Shown here piece by piece: positions 12,116 through 31,920 of a stretch of DNA of 64,000 nucleotides. The DNA lies in the NCBI GenBank assembly GCA_964605645.1, contig CAZSDJ010000001.1, positions 20,079-84,078 on the forward strand, in the 5' to 3' direction. Numbering within the stretch: position 1 is the first letter of the stretch; every line of letters starts with the position of its first letter. The notes beneath the pieces were generated by a model, which worked only from the letters and a program-made list of their open reading frames with translations, searched no databases and was not told where the DNA came from. Origin of the DNA: an uncultured Planctomycetia bacterium (GTDB lineage Bacteria; Omnitrophota; Gorgyraeia; Duberdicusellales; 4484-171). A program made the position numbers and the translations under genes.

Positions 12116-12192
12116 GCCGGCGTAGCTCAATCTGGCAGAGCACCTCACTTGTAATGAGGATGTTGGAGGTTCGATTCCTCTCGCCGGCTCCA
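12116..12192 (+). tRNA. tRNA-Thr (anticodon TGT), CCA encoded
   Basis: Manual cloverleaf: acceptor GCCGGCG/CGCCGGC, D-stem GCTC/GAGC, anticodon stem CCTCA/TGAGG with loop CTTGTAA, T-loop TTCGATT, discriminator T, then CCA. Confidence 0.85.
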
Positions 12193-12268
12193 AATAGCTT
12201 ATAGCTGATGGCAAGAAAAAATATATTTTATTCTTATTAGCCATTAGCAATTATCCATAAGCCAATAA

Positions 12269-12351
12269 GGGCAGGTTCCCGAGTGGCCAAAGGGGACAGA
12301 CTGTAAATCTGTTGCGCTTGCGCTTCGGAGGTTCGAATCCTCCCCTGCCCA
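12269..12351 (+). tRNA. tRNA-Tyr (anticodon GTA), type II with long variable arm
   Basis: Acceptor GGGCAGG/CCTGCCC, anticodon stem ACAGA/TCTGT with loop CTGTAAA, variable-arm hairpin GCGC-TT-GCGC, T-arm GGAGG-TTCGAAT-CCTCC. No CCA is encoded. Confidence 0.85.
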
Positions 12352-12376
12352 TTTTTTCTGTCAAAGGCAGAAAAAA
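12352..12376 (+). terminator. hairpin TTTTTTCTG-tcaaagg-CAGAAAAAA immediately after tRNA-Tyr
   Basis: Perfect 9-bp inverted repeat with a 7-nt loop. U-tracts on both sides make it a bidirectional terminator-like structure, possibly a processing structure. Confidence 0.4.
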
Positions 12377-12493
12377 TAGAGCAATTGAGCAATCGAAAAA
12401 TAGAACAATAGAAAAGCTCAATTGCGGTCTATTGTTCAAATGTTCTATTGTTCAGAGCGTTGAGATAGAGTTTCTTTTGTGTTAACAAGAATT

Positions 12494-12564
12494 GCGGGCG
12501 TAGTTCAATGGAAGAACACTAGCCTTCCAAGCTGGATATGGCGGTTCGATCCCGCTCGCCCGCT
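12494..12564 (+). tRNA. tRNA-Gly (anticodon TCC)
   Basis: Acceptor GCGGGCG/CGCCCGC, anticodon stem CTAGC/GCTGG (one G-U) with loop CTTCCAA, T-loop TTCGATC, discriminator T. Confidence 0.8.
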
Positions 12565-14109: not shown

Positions 14110-14176
14110 GAATAAATTTATTTGATCTAGGTAATTGTTTTGTCTTGATAGCTGTCAGTAAGCATGATAAAATTTT

Positions 14177-14252
14177 CGGGAGGTGGCGCAGTTTGGCTTA
14201 GCGCACTTGCATGGGGTGCAAGGGGTCGCGGGTTCGAATCCCGCTCTCCCGA
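14177..14252 (+). tRNA. tRNA-Pro (anticodon GGG)
   Basis: Acceptor CGGGAGG/TCTCCCG (one G-U), D-stem GCGC/GCGC, anticodon stem CTTGC/GCAAG with loop ATGGGGT, T-arm GCGGG-TTCGAAT-CCCGC, discriminator A. Confidence 0.8.
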
Positions 14253-14282
14253 GTAACACAGGAATAATTTTAGGAGGTTGAT

Positions 14283-22555: not shown

Positions 22556-22641
22556 TGGTGCCGGAGAAGGGACTTGAACCCTTACCTTCTTACGAAGACG
22601 GGATTTTGAATCCCGCGCGTCTGCCATTCCGCCACTCCGGC
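22556..22641 (-). tRNA. tRNA-Leu (anticodon CAA), type II, CCA encoded
   Basis: Minus-strand sense is GCCGGAGTGGCGGAATGGCAGACGCGCGGGATTCAAAATCCCG...CTCCGGCACCA. Anticodon loop TTCAAAA, long variable hairpin CTTC-GTAA-GAAG, T-arm AAGGG-TTCAAGT-CCCTT. Confidence 0.85.
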
Positions 22642-22718
22642 GAGTTAGCTTATAGCTAATAGTTTATGGCTAATGGTTAGTCAGTCGTGAATTATTAATA
22701 TAACAACGCTATTTATCT

Positions 22719-22754
22719 TTGTCAATTGACAATTTCTTATTGAGATGATAATAT
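22719..22754 (+). promoter_or_regulatory. sigma70-like promoter with palindromic -35: TTGTCAATTGACAA (perfect 14-bp palindrome), 17-bp spacer, -10 TAATAT
   Basis: TTGACA lies at 22726-22731, the 17-nt spacer at 22732-22748 and TAATAT at 22749-22754. The predicted TSS is about 20 nt before the tRNA-Ala-like 5' fragment at 22781. Confidence 0.5.
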
Positions 22755-22780
22755 TCAATAAACTTAACCAAACTGGAAAT

Positions 22781-22802
22781 GGGGCCGTAGTTCAGCTGGG
22801 AG
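22781..22802 (+). pseudogene. tRNA-Ala 5' fragment (22-nt exact duplicate of the first 22 nt of the downstream tRNA-Ala)
   Basis: GGGGCCGTAGTTCAGCTGGGAG is identical to 22915-22936 and then diverges. It is followed by the hairpin CTTGAC-gaa-GTCAAG (22812-22826). Confidence 0.55.
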
Positions 22803-22914
22803 CCAATTCTTCTTGACGAAGTCAAGTTTTATATAATAATTAATTTAGAATTGCCTCCAAATATTTGATAGGGTCAATTTGTTTTACTGAAAGTATTAAT
22901 TATAAGTAGTTAAT

Positions 22915-22987
22915 GGGGCCGTAGTTCAGCTGGGAGAACGCTACACTGGCAGTGTAGAGGCCAGGGGTTCAAGTCCCCTCGGCTCCA
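22915..22987 (+). tRNA. tRNA-Ala (anticodon GGC)
   Basis: Acceptor GGGGCCG/CGGCTCC includes the G3:U70 Ala identity pair. D-stem GTTC/GAAC, anticodon stem CTACA/TGTAG with loop CTGGCAG, T-arm AGGGG-TTCAAGT-CCCCT, discriminator A. Confidence 0.85.
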
Positions 22988-23030
22988 TAATTATAAAAGA
23001 ATCAGATAATTGTAAAATAGAGGGGATTAA

Positions 23031-26643: not shown

Positions 26644-28101
26644 ATGAATGCACATAAACAATTAGCGAAAACATTTAATTTTTTTATTTTTATACTTCTC
26701 ATTATTGGGATTATTTTAGGCAATGTATTTTCCTCTTATTTTTTCTTTTCTTTTCTTTTTATTTTATTGGGTGCTTTGGCTTATTTTTTAATTAAAAAAA
26801 ATAAAGTTTTGTTTTCTGAGATAAGTATTTCTTGCTTAGCTGTTTGTTTAGGTGCCTTATTATTTTTATCTTTTAATTATAACCAAATAAATAATTTTTT
26901 ACACACTAGGCAAAAAGCAACAATCAAAGTACTTTCATTGCCGCAAGAAAAAAGTAAGAGAAATATTTTTTTAGCCGAAATTATAAAGATAGGCGGTTAT
27001 CGCAAGCCATTCAAGGTAAAAGTTTTTGATTATTCGAAAAAAATGGATTATCTAAATAAATATCAGCTGCAAGCAAAATTAACCAAAAGAATATATCACA
27101 ATAAAAATTTTTACTATCTTTGGGTTAAAAAAAATACAAAGATAAAAAAGCTGCCTTTATCTTTGTGGGAAAGAGCAATTAAATGGGCTAATAATTATTG
27201 TTTGGCAGTTTTTGAAAATAATTGCACCCAAAGTACAAAAAACTTTTTAGCAGCAATATTTTTAGGCCGAAAAGAATTGATCGGCAAAGAAAAAGAATTT
27301 ATGCAAAATGCCGGCCTTTCCCATCTTTTGGCAATCAGCGGCTTACACGTTGGCTTGATTTCTTTGATTTTATTTTATTTTTTAAGATTTTTCCAGATAA
27401 GTTTTCGGACCATACTTTTTATTTTATCAATTTTTCTTATTTTTTATGTTGTTGCCACCGGATTTAGGCCCTCAACTCAGAGAGCTGTTTTGATGTATCT
27501 TGTTTTTGCTCTCGGCTTTTTGATGAAAAGAAAAATCGAAGTATTAAATTCATTGGGGCTTGCCGGTGTAATTCTATTGTTATTTTCACCAAACATTATT
27601 TATGATATCGGATTTCAACTTTCTTTTTTGGCGGTTTTTGGTATTGTGCTGGGATTTAAGATTTTTCCTTACAAGCAACAGAGTAATCTTTTGATCAATT
27701 ATATAAAACAAATTTTTCTTTGTTCTGTATTTGTCACCTTATTTACTTTGCCGGTTGTATCTTTTTATTTTGGAAAAATTTATGTGATGAGTATCTTTTA
27801 CAATATTGCCTTAATCCCTATATTTACTTTTATTCTTCTCATGAATTTATTGCTATTGCTGGTATCTCCTTTTGCTTTTTTCACAAAAAGCTTGGGGGTT
27901 GTTTTATCTTGGCTAGTTTATATTTTTCAAAGCTTAGCAAAGATTTTTGGCTCTTTTTCTTACTCTTATCTTTCCTACTCCTTTTCGTTTCCAGGGATTT
28001 TTATTTATTATTTATTTTTGTCTGCCGCAATAGTTTTATTTTTAAATCGCAAATCAGATTTTCTAAGAAAACAGAAACTCAACGAAATTCAGACGCTTTA
28101 G
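26644..28101 (+). CDS. comEC: ComEC/Rec2 family DNA internalisation channel (competence domain only, no beta-lactamase-like domain)
   Basis: Polytopic membrane protein. MQNAGLSHLLAISGLHVGLI is the conserved competence-domain motif. The last 8 codons and stop are encoded by the left arm of repeat A1. Confidence 0.85.
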   Translation: MNAHKQLAKTFNFFIFILLIIGIILGNVFSSYFFFSFLFILLGALAYFLIKKNKVLFSEISISCLAVCLGALLFLSFNYNQINNFLHTRQKATIKVLSLPQEKSKRNIFLAEIIKIGGYRKPFKVKVFDYSKKMDYLNKYQLQAKLTKRIYHNKNFYYLWVKKNTKIKKLPLSLWERAIKWANNYCLAVFENNCTQSTKNFLAAIFLGRKELIGKEKEFMQNAGLSHLLAISGLHVGLISLILFYFLRFFQISFRTILFILSIFLIFYVVATGFRPSTQRAVLMYLVFALGFLMKRKIEVLNSLGLAGVILLLFSPNIIYDIGFQLSFLAVFGIVLGFKIFPYKQQSNLLINYIKQIFLCSVFVTLFTLPVVSFYFGKIYVMSIFYNIALIPIFTFILLMNLLLLLVSPFAFFTKSLGVVLSWLVYIFQSLAKIFGSFSYSYLSYSFSFPGIFIYYLFLSAAIVLFLNRKSDFLRKQKLNEIQTL

Positions 28102-28217
28102 ATAACTCTTTCTGTGGCAAGAAGTAAGGAAACAAATATTTCAAAATTTCTAAAAATACAATATTTGTTTTGTAACTTATTGGAGGAGAGGAGGATGTCT
28201 AAAGCGTCTGAGTATTG
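28076..28217. repeat. repeat family A, copy A1 (~142 bp long imperfect palindrome), overlapping the comEC stop codon
   Basis: About 90% identical to 30617-30759. The arms TCAGACGCTTT / AAAGCGTCTGA form an inverted repeat, and the inner stem is AAACAAATATT / AATATTTGTTT. It contains SD GGAGGAGAGGAGG plus a 7-codon mini-ORF (MSKASEY*) at 28194. Confidence 0.75.
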
Positions 28218-28481
28218 ACAAATATTGACATAGTTGCTAGTAATTCTCAACAGAATTTTAAAAGTATTAATGTGAGATTTTTAAAAGGAAACGATAGGAA
28301 GAGCCAATGGGAATGGGAAGTTAAATGGACAGATGGAACCAAGACACCTTTTAAGGTTGAACTCACCCAACCTTCCCAGGGAGGCACAGATATTCAAGTA
28401 TATGGAACACAAGAAGAAGTTGATTTTGATTCTAGCCAGAAAATAATAATTGATCTAGGAGATATAAGTAAACCCAGATAA
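28215..28481 (+). CDS. hypothetical protein (orphan cassette-like ORF; start uncertain, TTG 28215 or GTG 28272)
   Basis: 88-codon ORF with non-K-rich composition (TQPSQGGTDIQVYGTQEEVDFDSSQ), unlike neighbouring proteins. No convincing RBS. Its stop TAA is embedded in the GATAACA core of repeat rep1. Confidence 0.3.
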   Translation: MTNIDIVASNSQQNFKSINVRFLKGNDRKSQWEWEVKWTDGTKTPFKVELTQPSQGGTDIQVYGTQEEVDFDSSQKIIIDLGDISKPR

Positions 28482-28561
28482 CAACTCATTTCACCGGACC
28501 TGAATAGCGACCTAAATAGAATTATGGTATACTATTCAGGCCGCTCAATTTGAATGTTATC
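28477..28561 (+). repeat. attC-like imperfect palindromic repeat rep1 (85 bp), GATAACA...TGTTATC termini
   Basis: The terminal 7-mers are exact reverse complements. The internal perfect 9-bp inverted repeat is CCTGAATAG (28499-28507) / CTATTCAGG (28532-28540), with a conserved centre CCTAAATAGAATT. Confidence 0.6.
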
Positions 28562-28590
28562 TGGAAAAATGAATAAAAAATAATAATTGT

Positions 28591-28619
28591 TTGACATTTG
28601 GTATCGATTATGGTATGGT
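28591..28619 (+). promoter_or_regulatory. vapBC promoter: TTGACA-17-TATGGT with direct repeat GGTAT..GGTAT in spacer
   Basis: Consensus -35 with a 17-nt spacer. RBS GGAGGTG lies 5 nt before ATG 28638. Confidence 0.55.
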
Positions 28620-28637
28620 TTTACTGGAGGTGAATCG

Positions 28638-28844
28638 ATGAAATTAGTTAAAGTATCTCCTAAATATCAAGTAGTTATCCCCCAATCAATTAGAGAAGCT
28701 TTAAAAATACACCCCGGAGAAAAAATTCATATGTTGCGGTATGAAAATCGTATAGAATTTATACCCGAAAAAAATATAAAATCTATGCGGGGCTTTCTGA
28801 AAGGAATTGATACTACCGTAAAACGGGAAAAAGGCCGTATATGA
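28638..28844 (+). CDS. vapB: AbrB/SpoVT-type antitoxin VapB
   Basis: MKLVKVSPKYQVVIPQSIREALKI is a swapped-hairpin AbrB/MazE-like motif. It is 68 aa and overlaps the downstream PIN toxin by ATGA. The strong RBS favours the ATG at 28638 over the track's upstream start at 28587. Confidence 0.8.
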   Translation: MKLVKVSPKYQVVIPQSIREALKIHPGEKIHMLRYENRIEFIPEKNIKSMRGFLKGIDTTVKREKGRI

Positions 28845-29218
28845 ATATAGTTGATTCTTGTGGTTGGTTAGAATATTTTGCCGATGGGCCAAATGCAAAT
28901 TTTTTCGCCCCGCCTATAGAAAAACCTAAAAATCTAATTGTACCCTCAATATGTATTTTTGAAGTGTTTAAGCGAATTTACCAACAACGTAATGAAGATG
29001 AGGCTTTACAAGCCATAGCTTTAATGCATCAAGGAGAAACTGTGGCAATAGACGATTCTTCTGCTTTATATGCTGCAAAATTAAGCCTTGATAATAATCT
29101 CCCTATGGCTGATAGTTTAATTTTGGCAATCGCCCGTATCAAAAAAGCTACAATATGGACTCAGGATAAAGATTTCGAAAAAATTGAAGATATAAAATAT
29201 ATTAAAGCAAAAAAATAA
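28841..29218 (+). CDS. vapC: PIN-domain toxin VapC
   Basis: MNIVDSCGWLEYF carries the conserved N-terminal Asp. The acidic residues D..E..D..D are spaced as in PIN domains, and TQDKDF is near the C-terminus. 125 aa. Confidence 0.8.
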   Translation: MNIVDSCGWLEYFADGPNANFFAPPIEKPKNLIVPSICIFEVFKRIYQQRNEDEALQAIALMHQGETVAIDDSSALYAAKLSLDNNLPMADSLILAIARIKKATIWTQDKDFEKIEDIKYIKAKK

Positions 29219-29235
29219 ATATAATAATAAACCCG

Positions 29236-29321
29236 GATAACAACTCATTCGAGCCGGCCTTTGACAGGCGCGCTTTATGAAACCAATCGGTTGTCAAGGG
29301 CAGCTTAATTCGAATGTTATG
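29236..29321 (+). repeat. attC-like repeat rep2 (86 bp), GATAACA...TGTTATG termini
   Basis: The 5' flank AAACCCgGATAACAACTCATT is shared with rep1. The internal inverted repeat is TTTGACAGG / TTGTCAAGG, and the 3' end is AATTCGAATGTTAT. Confidence 0.6.
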
Positions 29322-29347
29322 GGGAGTAGATGAAAAATAAAAATGCT

Positions 29348-29376
29348 TTGACATGTACATCTAAATAATGTACAAT
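29348..29376 (+). promoter_or_regulatory. brnTA promoter: TTGACA-17-TACAAT with TGTACA...TGTACA inverted repeat in spacer; GTG start 6 nt after -10 (leaderless)
   Basis: TTGACA lies at 29348-29353 and TACAAT at 29371-29376. The palindrome TGTACATCTAAATAATGTACA is a likely antitoxin operator. Confidence 0.5.
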
Positions 29377-29382
29377 TAAGCT

Positions 29383-29661
29383 GTGGAATACGAATGGAAT
29401 CCTGAAAAAAACGAATGGCTTAAAGAAAAAAGAAACATCTCTTTTGAGCAAATTGTTTTCCACTTTTCACAAGGTGATGTTTGGAGAAACTCCGATCATC
29501 CGGATAAAAAAAAATATAAAAAGCAAAAAATATATTTTGTCATCGTTGAAAATTATATTTATTTAGTGCCACATGTTGTTGAAAAGGAATATATATTTTT
29601 GAAAACGATAATTCCCAGTAGAAAAGCAACTAAAATGTATAAAAGAAAGCAGGAGGATTAA
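29383..29661 (+). CDS. brnT: BrnT-family toxin (DUF497 ribonuclease)
   Basis: MEYEWNPEKNEWLKEKRNISFEQ matches the BrnT N-terminal signature (EFEWDxxKNxxNxxKHGISFEEA). 92 aa, GTG start. Confidence 0.75.
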   Translation: MEYEWNPEKNEWLKEKRNISFEQIVFHFSQGDVWRNSDHPDKKKYKKQKIYFVIVENYIYLVPHVVEKEYIFLKTIIPSRKATKMYKRKQED

Positions 29662-29663
29662 TT

Positions 29664-29969
29664 ATGAAATATAATAAAGAAGAAAAGTACATATTGAAAG
29701 CTTTAGAAGACGGAAAAATGACGCTTTCTAAACCATCAAAAAAAGAAATAGAATCAATTAAAGCAGCCGCTAATAATACTTTTAAAAAAAATCGCCGGAT
29801 TACAATCAGGCTTTATAATCATGATTTTATAGGAATACAAAAAAAAGCAGTTGAGATGGGGATACCTTATCAAACACTGATTTCAGGCATAATTCATAGG
29901 TATATTGAAGGCGATATAAAAATAAAATCTCACAACAACTCGCTCCAGCGAACCCAAAAGCGGGCCTAA
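29664..29969 (+). CDS. brnA: BrnA-family antitoxin
   Basis: Directly downstream of brnT. KKNRRITIRLYNHDFIGIQKKAVEMGIPYQTLISGIIHRYIEG is a ribbon-helix-helix-type C-terminal domain typical of BrnA. The last 13 codons are encoded by repeat rep3. Confidence 0.75.
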   Translation: MKYNKEEKYILKALEDGKMTLSKPSKKEIESIKAAANNTFKKNRRITIRLYNHDFIGIQKKAVEMGIPYQTLISGIIHRYIEGDIKIKSHNNSLQRTQKRA

Positions 29970-30019
29970 ATAGAATTGCAAAAGAACCGCTTTTGCGCCG
30001 CTGAATTCGAATGTTAGAC
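29931..30019 (+). repeat. attC-like repeat rep3 (89 bp), CACAACAACTC...TGTTAGA termini
   Basis: Internal perfect 9-bp inverted repeat CAAAAGCGG / CCGCTTTTG, plus CAGCG/CGCTG. It shares the centre CCTAAATAGAATT with rep1 and the end AATTCGAATGTTA with rep2. Confidence 0.55.
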
Positions 30020-30046
30020 ATAAATAATGGAAATAAAAAAAGTACC

Positions 30047-30075
30047 TTGACAAGACGTACGTAATATGGTACGTT
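30047..30075 (+). promoter_or_regulatory. yefM-yoeB promoter: TTGACA-17-TACGTT with ACGTAC/GTACGT palindrome in spacer
   Basis: TTGACA lies at 30047-30052. The spacer AGACGTACGTAATATGG contains inverted half-sites. RBS GGAGG lies 6 nt before ATG 30094. Confidence 0.5.
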
Positions 30076-30093
30076 TTACACGGAGGAAAAGAA

Positions 30094-30336
30094 ATGACAA
30101 CTTTAACAGCAAGCCAGGCAAGAGCAAAATTATATAAATTATTAGATAAATTAGCTGAATCTCACGAACCTATTCAAATTAGTGGCAAAAGGCATGATGC
30201 TGTCCTTATTAGCCAAGAGGATTGGAGAGCAATTAAAGAAACTTTATTTTTGCTTTCTATTCCTAAAATGAGGGAATCTATCCGCAAAGGATTAAGAGCC
30301 CCTCTTAAAAAATGCGATAAGAAGCTAAACTGGTGA
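30094..30336 (+). CDS. yefM: Phd/YefM-family antitoxin
   Basis: TASQARAKLYKLLDKLAESHEPIQISGKRHDAVLISQEDWRAIKETL is the YefM fold signature. It overlaps the toxin gene by 4 nt. Confidence 0.8.
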   Translation: MTTLTASQARAKLYKLLDKLAESHEPIQISGKRHDAVLISQEDWRAIKETLFLLSIPKMRESIRKGLRAPLKKCDKKLNW

Positions 30337-30596
30337 GTTGGAAACTCGTCTATACTAAGCAAGCACAAAAAGATGCTAAAAAACTATCCACTGCAGGCTT
30401 ACGCCCAAAAGCAGAAGCCATTCTTGAAATCTTAGAAAAAAATCCCTACAGAAAACATCCACCCTTTGAAAAATTAATAGGGGACTTAGAAGGGGCTTAT
30501 TCACGCAGAATAAATATCCAGCATCGTGTAGTTTACCAGATTATAAAAAAATATAAAACTGTAAAAATTATCCGGTTATGGACGCATTATAAATAA
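30333..30596 (+). CDS. yoeB: YoeB/Txe-family toxin (RelE superfamily mRNA interferase)
   Basis: The FEKLIGDLEGAYSRRINIQHRVVYQI....IIRLWTHY block matches YoeB (catalytic H..Y at the C-terminus). 87 aa. Confidence 0.8.
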   Translation: MSWKLVYTKQAQKDAKKLSTAGLRPKAEAILEILEKNPYRKHPPFEKLIGDLEGAYSRRINIQHRVVYQIIKKYKTVKIIRLWTHYK

Positions 30597-30616
30597 ATTT
30601 AGATAAAATGTCTATC

Positions 30617-30759
30617 AACTCATGTCGAATTCAGACGCTTTAGATAGCTCTTTCTGTAGCAAGAAGTAAGGAAACAAATATTTTAAAATTTCTAAAAATA
30701 CAATATTTGTTTTGTAACTTATTGGTAGAGAGATGGATATCGAAAGCGTCTGAGTATTG
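30617..30759. repeat. repeat family A, copy A2 (~143 bp long imperfect palindrome)
   Basis: About 90% identical to A1. The 11-bp perfect arms are TCAGACGCTTT (30631-30641) and AAAGCGTCTGA (30743-30753). The left end ATCAACTCATGTCGAATTC resembles fused rep-type ends. Confidence 0.75.
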
Positions 30760-30765
30760 CGTAAT

Positions 30766-30851
30766 ATTTTAAAATTTCTAAAAATACAATATTTGTTTTG
30801 TAACTTATTGGTAGAGAGGTGGATATCGAAAGCGTCTGAGTATTGCGTAAT
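30766..30851. repeat. 86-bp tandem duplication of the right half of repeat A (unit 2; unit 1 = 30680-30765)
   Basis: 30766-30851 repeats 30680-30765 with one mismatch (ATTTTAAAATTTCTAAAAATACAATATTTGTTTTGTAACTTATTGGTAGAGAG[A/G]TGGATATCGAAAGCGTCTGAGTATTGCGTAAT). Confidence 0.8.
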
Positions 30852-30969
30852 AGCGATGTTTTGTTATGAATTCAAGAAAGCTGTTTTGATAAAATTTGTG
30901 TATATTTTTTGACAATGCTAATTTTGGATACAGATTGACAAAGGCAATCGGTTCTGATATATTTTCTTT

Positions 30970-31920
30970 ATGGTTAAATCTATATTTATAATTATATTTA
31001 CTTTTGGTTGCCTGCAGGCTTATCCGTTTTGGATCTGGTCGCCGAAGACTCAAAAGTGGAAAAATCCTGAATATTCCGCTCTTGCTACTCCTATCCTTCA
31101 ATACAAGGAAGCTATTAAATCTTTCAATGAAGGTAATTTTAAGAGGGCTTATAAAGAGTTGAAAAAAATGATTACTAATTATCCTGACTCTAAGCAAGCA
31201 GCTGAAGCTCAATATTATATGGGAAGAACTTTGGAAGAGCTTGATAAGCCGTATGAAGCTTATCTTGCTTTTCGCAAGGTGATTCAAAGCTATCCCAACA
31301 GTAAAAGAATTAATGAGGTTATTGAGAGAGAGTACAATATCGGAGAATATTTTTTAAATAGAGAAAGCAAAAAATTACTCGGTGTTTCAATTTATGATTT
31401 TGTAAATCATCCTTCGGTTCAGATTTTTCAAAGTATTGTTGAAGAAACCCCTTATTCTGAATATGCTGCCAGGGCACAATATAAATTAGGGGTAATTTTT
31501 TTAAAATTAAGCCGGTTTGAAGAAGCACGGCAAGCATTTCAAAAAGTTATCGATGATTATTCTGAGAGTAAATGGGCAACGCCGGCAAAATATCAATTAG
31601 CTTTAGCTACCGCAAAAGCTTTTCCCGGCGCCGATTATGACGCCTCTTCCCTTCAACAAGCAACTGAAAGATTAAGTGAATTTATTAAGGAGCATCCGGA
31701 AGCAGAAATATCGGAGCAGGCAGAGGGCCAATTAGCCCAATTAAGAAATAAAGAAGCTAAAAAAATATTTGAAACTGCTGTATTTTACAAAAAACAAAGG
31801 CATCCGGATAGTGCTAAAATTTATTTAGATAAAATAATTAATAAATATTCCGATAGCGAATACTATCAAAAAGCAAAACAAATGTTAAAAGATTTAGAAG
31901 GTCTGTCAGACTCTAATTAA
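30970..31920 (+). CDS. BamD-like TPR lipoprotein (outer-membrane assembly factor family)
   Basis: A signal peptide with an FTFGC lipobox-like Cys is followed by repeated TPR units ending in YP(D/N)S (NYPDSKQAAEAQYYMG, SYPNSKRINEV, DYSESKWA), as in BamD/YfiO. 316 aa. Confidence 0.6.
   Translation: MVKSIFIIIFTFGCLQAYPFWIWSPKTQKWKNPEYSALATPILQYKEAIKSFNEGNFKRAYKELKKMITNYPDSKQAAEAQYYMGRTLEELDKPYEAYLAFRKVIQSYPNSKRINEVIEREYNIGEYFLNRESKKLLGVSIYDFVNHPSVQIFQSIVEETPYSEYAARAQYKLGVIFLKLSRFEEARQAFQKVIDDYSESKWATPAKYQLALATAKAFPGADYDASSLQQATERLSEFIKEHPEAEISEQAEGQLAQLRNKEAKKIFETAVFYKKQRHPDSAKIYLDKIINKYSDSEYYQKAKQMLKDLEGLSDSN

What the first reader, a model, noticed from the sequence alone, without database searches (positions are those of the whole stretch)
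28477..30019. Three attC-like repeats with exact inverse-core termini and conserved centres delimit each TA module
I checked this by hand. rep1 (28477-28561) begins GATAACA and ends TGTTATC, which are exact reverse complements. rep2 (29236-29321) is GATAACA...TGTTATG and rep3 (29931-30019) is CACAACAACTC...TGTTAGA. The 3'-most bases after GTTA vary, as expected if they derive from the neighbouring cassette. Each carries a different internal perfect 9-bp stem: CCTGAATAG/CTATTCAGG, TTTGACAGG/TTGTCAAGG and CAAAAGCGG/CCGCTTTTG. rep1 and rep3 share the central CCTAAATAGAATT, and rep1 and rep2 share the 5' flank AAACCC(A/G)GATAACAACTCATT. Conserved ends plus a variable interior palindrome is the attC pattern, not the pattern of simple terminators.
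Basis: seen in the sequence. Interest (0 to 1): 0.7.

Follow-up and report, generated by a model that had tools for sequence, protein, structure and literature searches.

The report
Integron cassette array without integrase
The three repeats are genuine integron attC recombination sites that separate four small gene cassettes, three of them toxin-antitoxin pairs, in a Candidatus Omnitrophota chromosome; this is a known kind of element, and its one unusual feature is a duplicated long hairpin that brackets the array.

Summary
Three about 87-nt repeats (28477-28562, 29236-29322, 29931-30019) share conserved ends and have variable middles. One detail is wrong: the rep2 stem is not a perfect 9-bp complement.

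The attC reading is supported:
- All three fit the canonical attC layout: a 7-bp R box with AAC/GTT, a 5/6-nt unpaired spacer, an L box, a variable tip, and two bulged bases on the bottom strand. attC-aadA7 fits the same template.
- A covariance model finds 22 more sites of this family, in arrays, mostly in other Omnitrophota MAGs. The stems covary.
- The BrnT/BrnA cassette recurs in another MAG behind a different attC body, and homology starts exactly at G|TT.

No integrase lies in the 64-kb window, so this is a CALIN (attC cluster lacking integron-integrase) of four cassettes between comEC and bamD.

Relatives show this site is a hot spot. It is naive, or holds a solo hairpin, or two other cassettes with attCs, or an unrelated ORF.

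One thing is unexplained. The array is bracketed by direct copies of a 141-147-nt hairpin, and its last attC is cut to 17 nt. A related genome has the same hairpin-cassette-hairpin layout at another locus.

Verdict: new member of a known kind, moderate interest.

The parts
26644..28101 (+). comEC (left flanking housekeeping gene). Its last 16 nt and its TAG stop lie inside the hairpin element.
   Evidence: Pfam Competence 8.7e-54. Homologues are Candidatus Omnitrophota ComEC.
28086..28232 (+). Hairpin element H, left copy (arms 28089-28140 / 28160-28211). It is the left member of the direct repeat that brackets the array.
   Evidence: Direct repeat D1 and inverted repeat I3. RNA fold is -49.5 kcal/mol on + against -36.6 on -, z -9.1. 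A single copy sits at the same site in relatives L025-L029.
28233..28556 (+). Cassette 1: a 69-aa ORF (28272-28481, GTG start) of unknown function. It ends at the G of G|TT in attC1.
   Evidence: ORF list. No Pfam match. The right boundary is set by the attC1 R' box. The left boundary is only approximate.
28477..28562 (+). attC1 (rep1)
   Evidence: CM R1 79.8 bits, E 4e-21. R box 7/7 pairs; bottom-strand bulges A and T. DNA fold z -5.7 (top) and -7.7 (bottom).
28557..29316 (+). Cassette 2: own promoter (28591-28619), MazE/AbrB-type antitoxin (28638-28844) and PIN/VapC toxin (28841-29218).
   Evidence: Pfam MazE_antitoxin 2.9e-6 and PIN 2.2e-11. Promoter TTGACA-17-TATGGT with TG.
29236..29322 (+). 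attC2 (rep2)
   Evidence: CM R1 78.2 bits, E 1e-20. R box 6/7 pairs; bottom-strand bulges G and C.
29317..30013 (+). Cassette 3: own promoter (29348-29376), BrnT toxin (29383-29661) and a BrnA-like partner (29664-29969, which reads into attC3).
   Evidence: Pfam BrnT 2.4e-6, below the curated cut-off. The same cassette, 91-92% aa identical, occurs in L011 and L030 in other contexts. Promoter 11/12 match.
29931..30019 (+). attC3 (rep3)
   Evidence: CM R1 72.5 bits, E 5e-19. Bottom-strand bulges G and T, as in attC-aadA7. Only 4/7 R-box pairs.
30014..30627 (+). Cassette 4: Phd/YefM antitoxin (30094-30336), YoeB/ParE-type toxin (30333-30596), then a 17-nt attC stump TCTATCAACTCATGTCG (30611-30627: R'' box, spacer and start of L'').
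   Evidence: Pfam PhdYeFM 1.5e-15 and YoeB 1.2e-7. Repeat family D9. No full attC is detected there even with filters off.
30628..30774 (+). Hairpin element H, right copy. It includes a copy of the last 16 nt of comEC. It is 91% identical to the left copy over 141 nt: left arm plus loop 71/74, right arm 48/54.
30677..30852 (+). 86-nt tandem duplication (2.0 copies, 98% matches) of the loop and right arm of H.
   Evidence: TRF; D1/D4.
30935..31920 (+). bamD/YfiO-like gene (30970-31920) with its conserved promoter (30935-30963); right flanking housekeeping gene.
   Evidence: Pfam YfiO/TPR. Promoter 11/12 match. The promoter block is conserved in L025, L038, L039 and L048.

Best explanation
rep1-3 are integron attC sites in canonical orientation. 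On the + strand they read R''(..ATAAC) then L''...L' then R'(GTTA..), and each lies downstream of co-directional ORFs. Together they form a 2.4-kb cluster of four gene cassettes with no integrase nearby (a CALIN) in a Candidatus Omnitrophota chromosome, between comEC and bamD.

How it works (inferred from the established integron mechanism). The bottom strand of each attC folds into a hairpin. An IntI tyrosine recombinase, encoded elsewhere or lost, binds the R and L boxes. It reads the two bulged bases and the unpaired spacer to choose the strand, then cuts once at AA|C (top strand G|TT). Each unit running from TT to the next G can therefore be excised as a circle and re-inserted.

The three TA cassettes carry their own sigma-70-type promoters, so they are expressed without a Pc promoter. 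They probably stabilise the array or persist as selfish modules.

The array occupies a recurrent insertion hot spot. It was later rearranged: its last attC is broken and a resident about 145-nt hairpin is duplicated on both sides.

What is shown: sequence and structure membership of the sites, cassette boundaries at G|TT, cassette mobility between contexts, absence of intI in the window, and polymorphism of the locus. What is inferred: that an IntI acts or acted on them, and how the array arrived.
For: - Geometry. All three sites thread onto one template: 7-bp R box, 5-nt spacer, TT, bulge, 6 bp, bulge, at least 5 bp, variable tip, then a 6-nt spacer on the way back. attC-aadA7, whose sequence comes from primer aada7-3 in PMC2095811, threads onto the same template with bottom-strand bulges G and T. 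The defining features are those listed in PMC11641012.
- Family and covariation. 25 sites were aligned. 85.4% of cells are paired, against 28-39% when the 3' partners are slid. 11 of 20 pairs show compensatory changes, and 0/500 shuffles reach the observed score. AAC and GTT are nearly invariant, and the two bulge columns stay unpaired throughout.
- Strand specificity. 72-80 bits on + against under 7 bits on -.
- Arrays elsewhere. L005, L011 and L014 (Omnitrophota MAGs) hold 3-4 sites each, L015 holds 4, L022, L035 and L038 hold 2 each, and L021 holds 1.
- Cassette boundary. BrnT/BrnA in the window and in L011 are homologous from GTTATGGGGA onward, while the attC bodies upstream differ (rep2-type against rep3-type). 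L035 has the same cassette between two further attCs.
- Content. TA pairs with their own promoters, as is typical of chromosomal cassette arrays (own knowledge).
- No tyrosine recombinase. Pfam scans of 20 ORFs of 250-420 aa and a tblastn with IntI1 (E<=10) found none.
- Relatives. The locus is naive in L048, holds a solo hairpin in L025-L029, holds two different cassettes with two attCs of the same family in L038, and holds an unrelated 233-aa ORF in L039-L042.
Against: - No integron integrase was found in the window or in any of the 48 fetched loci. No attI was identified.
- The IntegronFinder attC model could not be run. Model R1 was built from these very sequences, so its scores on rep1-3 are circular. 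Only the hits outside the seed set, and the covariation, are independent.
- The sites are imperfect. rep3 pairs only 4/7 in the R box, and rep1 has two mismatches in the L box.
- For rep2 the canonical fold is 3-6.5 kcal/mol above the MFE.
- The fourth attC is a 17-nt stump. The array is bracketed by a 141-147-nt direct repeat, which IntI-mediated insertion does not produce. At least the last step in the history of this locus was therefore not a classical integron reaction.
Confidence: 0.87

Rival explanations
1. The repeats are ordinary intergenic palindromes (intrinsic terminators or REP-like elements) that happen to follow each operon, unrelated to integrons.
For: They fold stably, with z from -2.5 to -7.7. 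They lie just downstream of each operon.
Against: No T-run follows any of them; the only terminator-like hit is on the minus strand, inside rep3. The conserved parts are the ends (AAC...GTT), not the stem. The two bulges and the 5/6-nt unpaired spacer are conserved across 25 sites with covarying stems. The layout matches attC-aadA7 position for position. Cassette homology breaks exactly at G|TT.
Confidence: 0.03
2. Origin of the array at this locus, version A. The cassettes were inserted by a trans-acting IntI into a non-classical genomic site (attG-type, at a GTT just downstream of the hairpin). A later illegitimate recombination or tandem-duplication event then broke the last attC and duplicated the hairpin.
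For: Small CALINs and SALINs are proposed to arise from IntI-mediated insertion at attG sites with a GWT consensus (bioRxiv 10.1101/2022.09.11.507474). The left junction ...GACATAG|TTGCTAG aligns with the native ...GCGATG|TTTTGTTATG downstream of the right-hand hairpin copies (hand alignment). L038 has an array at the same locus that ends in a full attC with no hairpin duplication. The region is prone to duplication, as the 86-nt tandem repeat shows. The stump-hairpin junction shares CGA(A) microhomology with the comEC 3' end.
Against: It needs two events. The native GTT sequence downstream of the right hairpin is intact, so the expected right junction (full attC followed by TT of the target) is not present. 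In L038 the left junction lies inside the hairpin homologue, not after it.
Confidence: 0.3
3. Origin, version B. The hairpin H acts as portable homology or as a recombination site. An excised circle carrying H plus cassettes integrates at a resident H, either by RecA-type single crossover or by an unknown hairpin-specific recombinase, giving H-X-H. Recombination between the two H copies reverses this and leaves a solo H. The cassettes are then moved as a block, independently of IntI.
For: H-X-H is seen twice, independently, with different H variants and different cargo: in the window, and in L030 where BrnT/BrnA with a half attC lies between two H copies. In relatives L036 and L037 the L030 locus has a 54-76-nt spacer with no H, so H arrived there with the insert. 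L025-L029 carry a solo H at comEC-bamD, and L048 has no H at all, only a short terminator. The right copy is a mosaic: an A.G mismatch sits where the left copy has A-T and relatives have C-G. Left arms are 95-96% identical and right arms 85-89% in both H pairs.
Against: Integration of an H-X circle at a site that lacks H (L030) should leave one H, not two. Only five H loci are known, and no further copies occur in the 64-kb window or in the other loci. No candidate recombinase or transposase is nearby. The arm asymmetry is statistically weak. No target-site duplication could be defined.
Confidence: 0.25

Closest known systems
Integron attC sites (59-base elements), e.g. attC-aadA7 of class 1 integrons
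   Same: Imperfect palindrome with R''/R' boxes carrying AAC/GTT. A 5/6-nt unpaired central spacer. An L box interrupted by one bulge and followed by a second, giving bottom-strand G and T in rep3. A variable tip. Position at the 3' end of co-oriented ORFs, with the crossover at G|TT. The boxes are nearly the same sequence: aadA7 is TAACAATTCATTCAAGCCGAC...GGCTTAATTCAAGCGTTAGAT (PMC2095811), and this family is TAACAACTCATTCGAGCTGAC...CAGCTCAATTCGAATGTTAGAT.
   Different: A longer variable tip (86-89 nt in total against about 60). The host is Candidatus Omnitrophota. No cognate integrase is known. blastn against PLSDB plasmids gives no full-length match.
CALIN / SALIN (attC clusters or single attC sites lacking an integron-integrase; IntegronFinder nomenclature)
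   Same: At least 2 attC sites, no intI nearby, small size, embedded among housekeeping genes and not flanked by transposases. This matches the description of many small CALINs in bioRxiv 10.1101/2022.09.11.507474.
   Different: The terminal attC is truncated, and the cluster is bracketed by a duplicated about 145-nt hairpin. The same chromosomal site carries different cassettes in different species.
Toxin-antitoxin cassettes of sedentary chromosomal integrons (e.g. the Vibrio superintegron)
   Same: TA pairs (VapC, BrnT and YoeB families) packaged as cassettes with their own promoters. The attC sites are homogeneous within a lineage (own knowledge; see also PMC11023631, listed).
   Different: Here three of the four cassettes are TA pairs, and there is no large array or platform in view.
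MITE-flanked integrons and REPIN/Correia-type hairpin repeats (comparison for the hairpin H only; from own knowledge, not tested against a library)
   Same: A long imperfect hairpin with perfect 14-15-nt terminal inverted repeats (CAGACGCTTTCGATA / TATCGAAAGCGTCTG), intergenic, with a variable loop (121-223 nt between termini). Two direct copies bracket a cassette-bearing segment.
   Different: Very low copy number in the sequence available. No target-site duplication was defined and no associated transposase was seen. One copy overlaps the comEC stop codon, and the element folds markedly better as + strand RNA.

Membership tests
attC recombination site | Imperfect palindrome whose ends are inverse core sites, R'' (..AAC) and R' (GTT..) | tested here: met
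   AAC/GTT columns are paired in 23-25 of 25 sites. rep1, rep2 and rep3 pair 7/7, 6/7 and 4/7 positions in the R box.
attC recombination site | Unpaired central spacer between the R and L boxes | tested here: met
   ACTCA (5 nt) faces TTCGAA/TTTGAA (6 nt) in all three sites. attC-aadA7 has the same lengths.
attC recombination site | Two to three extrahelical bases on the bottom strand that set strand choice | tested here: met
   Two constant unpaired columns (15 and 22) on the top-strand 5' arm in 25/25 sites. Bottom-strand bases are A/T (rep1), G/C (rep2) and G/T (rep3, as in aadA7). The model scores 72-80 bits on + against under 7 bits on -.
attC recombination site | Variable terminal structure, with conservation of structure rather than sequence | tested here: met
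   Site lengths run from 59 to 96 nt across the family. 11 of 20 modelled pairs show compensatory changes. 85% of cells are paired against 28-39% in slid controls.
attC recombination site | Marks cassette boundaries, with the crossover at G|TT, so that the same cassette occurs behind different attC bodies | tested here: met
   BrnT/BrnA cassette in the window, L011 and L035.
attC recombination site | Detected by the IntegronFinder attC covariance model (attc_4) | not tested
   That model is not available here, and Rfam has no attC family. A home-made model (R1) was used instead.
attC recombination site | Recombined by an IntI integrase as a folded single bottom strand | not testable with these tools
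   Needs an in vivo or in vitro recombination assay.
Complete integron | intI gene with attI and Pc adjacent to the first cassette | tested here: not met
   No Phage_integrase domain in 20 ORFs of 250-420 aa. No IntI1-like tblastn hit at E<=10 in the window or in the first 24 loci. Upstream of the first cassette are comEC and the hairpin.
[quoted passage not shown] | At least 2 attC sites with no integron-integrase nearby | tested here: met
   Three attC sites within 1.5 kb and no integrase within about 28 kb upstream or 34 kb downstream. Definition.
MITE / REPIN-like element (hairpin H) | Terminal inverted repeats, target-site duplication and multiple dispersed copies | tested here: inconclusive
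   TIR-like termini are present. A target-site duplication cannot be defined because the spacers are not conserved. Only two genomic sites are known, and there are no extra copies in the 64-kb window.

The most novel reading that the evidence does not exclude
The 130-240-nt hairpin H is a previously undescribed hairpin-type recombination or mobilisation module. It brackets integron-derived cassettes (H-X-H) and moves them between chromosomal sites independently of IntI, and solo H copies are the scars it leaves. Alternatively, H defines a structured chromosomal landing pad for cassettes at comEC-bamD, which would be an integrase-distant, attI-like hot spot conserved across Omnitrophota species.
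Probability: 0.18. Interest if true: 0.65.

Novelty: new member of a known kind. Interest (0 to 1): 0.4.

Why it matters
It extends well-formed, canonical attC sites and cassette traffic to Candidatus Omnitrophota, an uncultured phylum. A full-text search found no paper that links integron attC sites to it.

The family's R and L boxes are nearly those of the clinical attC-aadA7. This shows how conserved the IntI recognition architecture is across distant hosts.

The locus is also a natural series for studying how integrase-less cassette clusters form and decay. Five states are seen at one site: naive, solo hairpin, array, a different array, and an unrelated ORF. The recurring hairpin-cassette-hairpin layout hints at a second way of moving cassettes, based on homology or on a hairpin.

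None of this overturns current understanding. CALINs carrying TA cassettes are common.

Tried and rejected
- Rfam, at gathering thresholds over the whole window and in E-value mode over 27900-31000, gave nothing for the repeats or the hairpin.
- Integrase hunt. Looking up a second assembly of the L011 array did not extend it towards an integrase.
- The window's own contig is not retrievable: exact look-ups of ComEC failed twice.
- The first metagenome pattern was too strict and gave 0 hits. The second gave 6 loci, of which only 2 were real.
- Most genome-scan hits outside Omnitrophota were chance matches in coding sequence, scoring under 25 bits.
- Viral-contig scans for the hairpin and for the attC found only chance matches inside genes.
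- blastn of a consensus-like attC against PLSDB plasmids gave no meaningful hit.
- A fourth full attC after YoeB was sought with filters off and not found.
- The hairpin as a giant attC was rejected. It has no GTT/AAC boxes in register, and R1 gives only 6-9 bits.
- The hairpin as a fixed ancestral target was rejected. L048 lacks it at comEC-bamD, and L036 and L037 lack it at the L030 locus.
- The hairpin as part of other arrays was rejected. No long inverted repeats occur in L005, L011, L014 or L035.
- A simple single-crossover model does not explain both hairpin copies, because both carry the lineage-specific A (the TAG stop) in the left arm.
Full report
**1. The observation**

- The 3' block GCCGCTNAATTYGAATGTTA occurs three times in 64 kb against 0.07 expected. 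The 5' block AAACCCRGATAACAACTCAT occurs twice against 0 expected.
- Aligned, the ends are conserved and the middles differ.
- One sub-claim is wrong. The rep2 stem is CCTTTGACA/TGTCAAGGG: 6 perfect pairs, or 9 with one G.T. It is not a perfect 9-mer complement.
- The ORFs between the repeats are a MazE/AbrB-PIN(VapC) pair, a BrnT pair with a BrnA-like partner, and a Phd-YoeB/ParE pair. Upstream of rep1 is a 69-aa ORF with no Pfam match.
- The first two TA operons have strong sigma-70-type promoters just after the preceding repeat (28591-28619 and 29348-29376).

**2. Are they attC sites?**

Hand alignment of the two arms showed that every repeat carries extra bases on the 5' arm. I formalised this as a template: 7-bp R box, 5-nt spacer, TT, one unpaired base, 6 bp, one unpaired base, at least 5 bp, tip, with a 6-nt spacer on the 3' side.
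- All three repeats fit the template.
- attC-aadA7 also fits it. Its sequence was taken from primer aada7-3 in PMC2095811, and its bulges are G and T on the bottom strand.
- rep3 also has G/T, rep2 has G/C and rep1 has A/T.
- These are the defining attC features listed in PMC11641012: R box, L box, unpaired central spacer, 2-3 extrahelical bases, variable terminal structure, and cleavage in AAC.
- Even the box sequences are close. aadA7 is TAACAATTCATTCAAGCCGAC...GGCTTAATTCAAGCGTTAGAT. This family is TAACAACTCATTCGAGCTGAC...CAGCTCAATTCGAATGTTAGAT.
- Caveats. For rep2 the canonical fold is not the MFE. rep3 pairs only 4/7 in the R box, which is expected if the bases after G|TT belong to the next cassette.

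**3. Further copies**

A pattern scan of GTDB representative genomes returned 18 loci. The real ones were three Omnitrophota contigs (L005, L011, L014) and a 2.9-kb contig binned as Bacilli (L015).

A covariance model (R1) built on eight sites then found arrays:
- 3 sites in L005, and 4 each in L011, L014 and L015.
- 2 in L022 and 1 in L021, both metagenome contigs.
- 2 each in L035 and L038.
- In the window, only the three known sites.

On the 25-site alignment:
- 85.4% of cells pair, against 28-39% with slid partners.
- 11 of 20 pairs show compensatory changes, and no shuffle reaches the observed covariation.
- AAC/GTT are nearly invariant, and the two bulge columns are never paired.

The model scores 72-80 bits on the + strand and under 7 bits on the - strand. 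No T-run follows the repeats. Rfam has no match.

**4. Cassette behaviour**

L011 carries a BrnT/BrnA pair about 91% identical in protein (BrnT).
- Nucleotide homology with the window starts exactly at GTTATGGGGA.
- The attC body upstream is rep3-like in L011 but is rep2 in the window.
- L035 has the same cassette between two more divergent attCs.
- L031-L034 carry it alone, with a decayed R'' remnant.

This is the classical signature of exchange at G|TT.

**5. Organism and context**

- ComEC homologues identify Candidatus Omnitrophota.
- The window is otherwise housekeeping. Pfam scans of 20 mid-sized ORFs and a tblastn with IntI1 found no tyrosine recombinase.
- The element is therefore a CALIN in the sense of IntegronFinder and of bioRxiv 10.1101/2022.09.11.507474.
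- In two other MAGs the larger arrays run off the contig start and end about 0.2 kb (L011) and about 1 kb (L005) upstream of tRNA-Thr(CGT). This suggests a sedentary array at a conserved site whose integrase end was not assembled. That is inference.

**6. The locus is a hot spot**

Five states are seen at comEC-bamD:
- L048 (ComEC 72% identical) has comEC, a short terminator and the bamD promoter within 91 nt.
- L025-L029 (85%) have a single about 130-nt hairpin H in a 223-nt spacer.
- L038 (75%) has a diverged H homologue followed by two different cassettes with two attCs of the same family, then the native terminator.
- L039-L042 (73%) have the H homologue plus a 233-aa ORF and no attC.
- The window has H, four cassettes, H again, a partial H, and then bamD.

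**7. The unexplained part**

- The array is bracketed by direct copies of H (28086-28232 and 30628-30774; 91% identical over 141 nt). The repeat includes the last 16 nt of comEC.
- The last attC is cut after 17 nt, exactly at the start of the right copy.
- An 86-nt tandem duplication follows.
- H folds much better as + strand RNA: -49.5 against -36.6 kcal/mol. It shows limited covariation.
- The right copy has an A.G mismatch where the left copy has A-T and relatives have C-G. Left arms plus loop are 71/74 identical and right arms 48/54.
- In L030, a genome from the same samples as the solo-H alleles, a BrnT/BrnA cassette with a half attC lies between two H copies at the aldh-rlmN spacer. In relatives that spacer is 54-76 nt with no H.
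- H-X-H therefore recurs, and H can arrive together with the cargo.
- IntI reactions do not create such repeats.

I rank two histories about equally:
- IntI insertion at a genomic GTT, followed by an illegitimate duplication.
- Homology- or hairpin-mediated integration of an H-bearing circle.

Neither explains every detail.

**8. Comparison and verdict**

- Membership in the attC family is met on every feature that can be tested in silico. Membership in 'complete integron' fails because there is no intI or attI. CALIN fits.
- The finding is a new member of a known kind in a phylum for which a full-text search found no paper with attC and Omnitrophica together. Three papers mention integrons and Omnitrophota together, and I did not read them.
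- Interest is moderate. The attC call itself is unsurprising to a specialist. The conserved hot spot and the hairpin-bracketed cassettes deserve a follow-up.

Noticed in passing
window 30677-30852: An 86-nt tandem duplication (2.0 copies, 98% matches) of the loop plus right arm of the hairpin element, immediately downstream of the right hairpin copy. It shows the region is prone to duplication.
   Followed up: partly
window 28086-28101 vs L025 7405-7446: The comEC stop codon (TAG) lies inside the hairpin's left arm. It is created by a C-to-A change relative to L025 and L030, where the ORF runs about 40 nt further into the hairpin. The same A is present in the right hairpin copy, where it is unpaired (A.G).
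   Followed up: partly
L011 3927-4289 and L005 2023-3127: In two different Omnitrophota MAGs the larger attC arrays end upstream of a tRNA-Thr(CGT) gene, about 0.2 kb away in L011 and about 1 kb in L005. This suggests a conserved chromosomal position for a sedentary array whose integrase end lies beyond the contig starts. The last attC in L011 is degenerate.
   Followed up: partly
L015 (JAGYOE010000063.1, whole 2913-nt contig): A contig binned as 'Bacilli bacterium' carries four attC sites of the same Omnitrophota family (up to 91 bits) at 31% GC. This is probably a mis-binned contig, or a case of horizontal transfer.
   Followed up: no
window 28509-28523 and 29966-29980; L011 3261-3275: The loop motif CCTAAATAGAATT (CCCTAAATAAAATT in L011) is conserved among the variable tips of several attCs (rep1, rep3, L011:3229). 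Related forms occur in L011:2099, L014:3028 and L035:750. This points to an attC subfamily with a conserved tip whose significance is unknown.
   Followed up: no
L036 4925-5000: The aldh-rlmN spacer of the JAWOBO01 MAG holds its own unrelated perfect palindrome (CACACCGCGTAGGTGTGATATCACACCTACGCGGTGTG), at the position where L030 carries hairpin-BrnTA-hairpin.
   Followed up: no
L038 5447-7253 and L039 5432-6471: Other cargo at the same hot spot. L038 has ORFs of 62, 150 and 163 aa (the last a weak DUF6036 match) between attCs. L039-L042 have a 233-aa ORF with no Pfam hit on record and no attC. Their functions were not examined.
   Followed up: no
window 12116-12564, 14176-14253, 22556-22988: Six ordinary tRNA genes: a Thr-Tyr-Gly cluster, plus Pro, Leu and Ala. 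None is adjacent to the cassette array.
   Followed up: no
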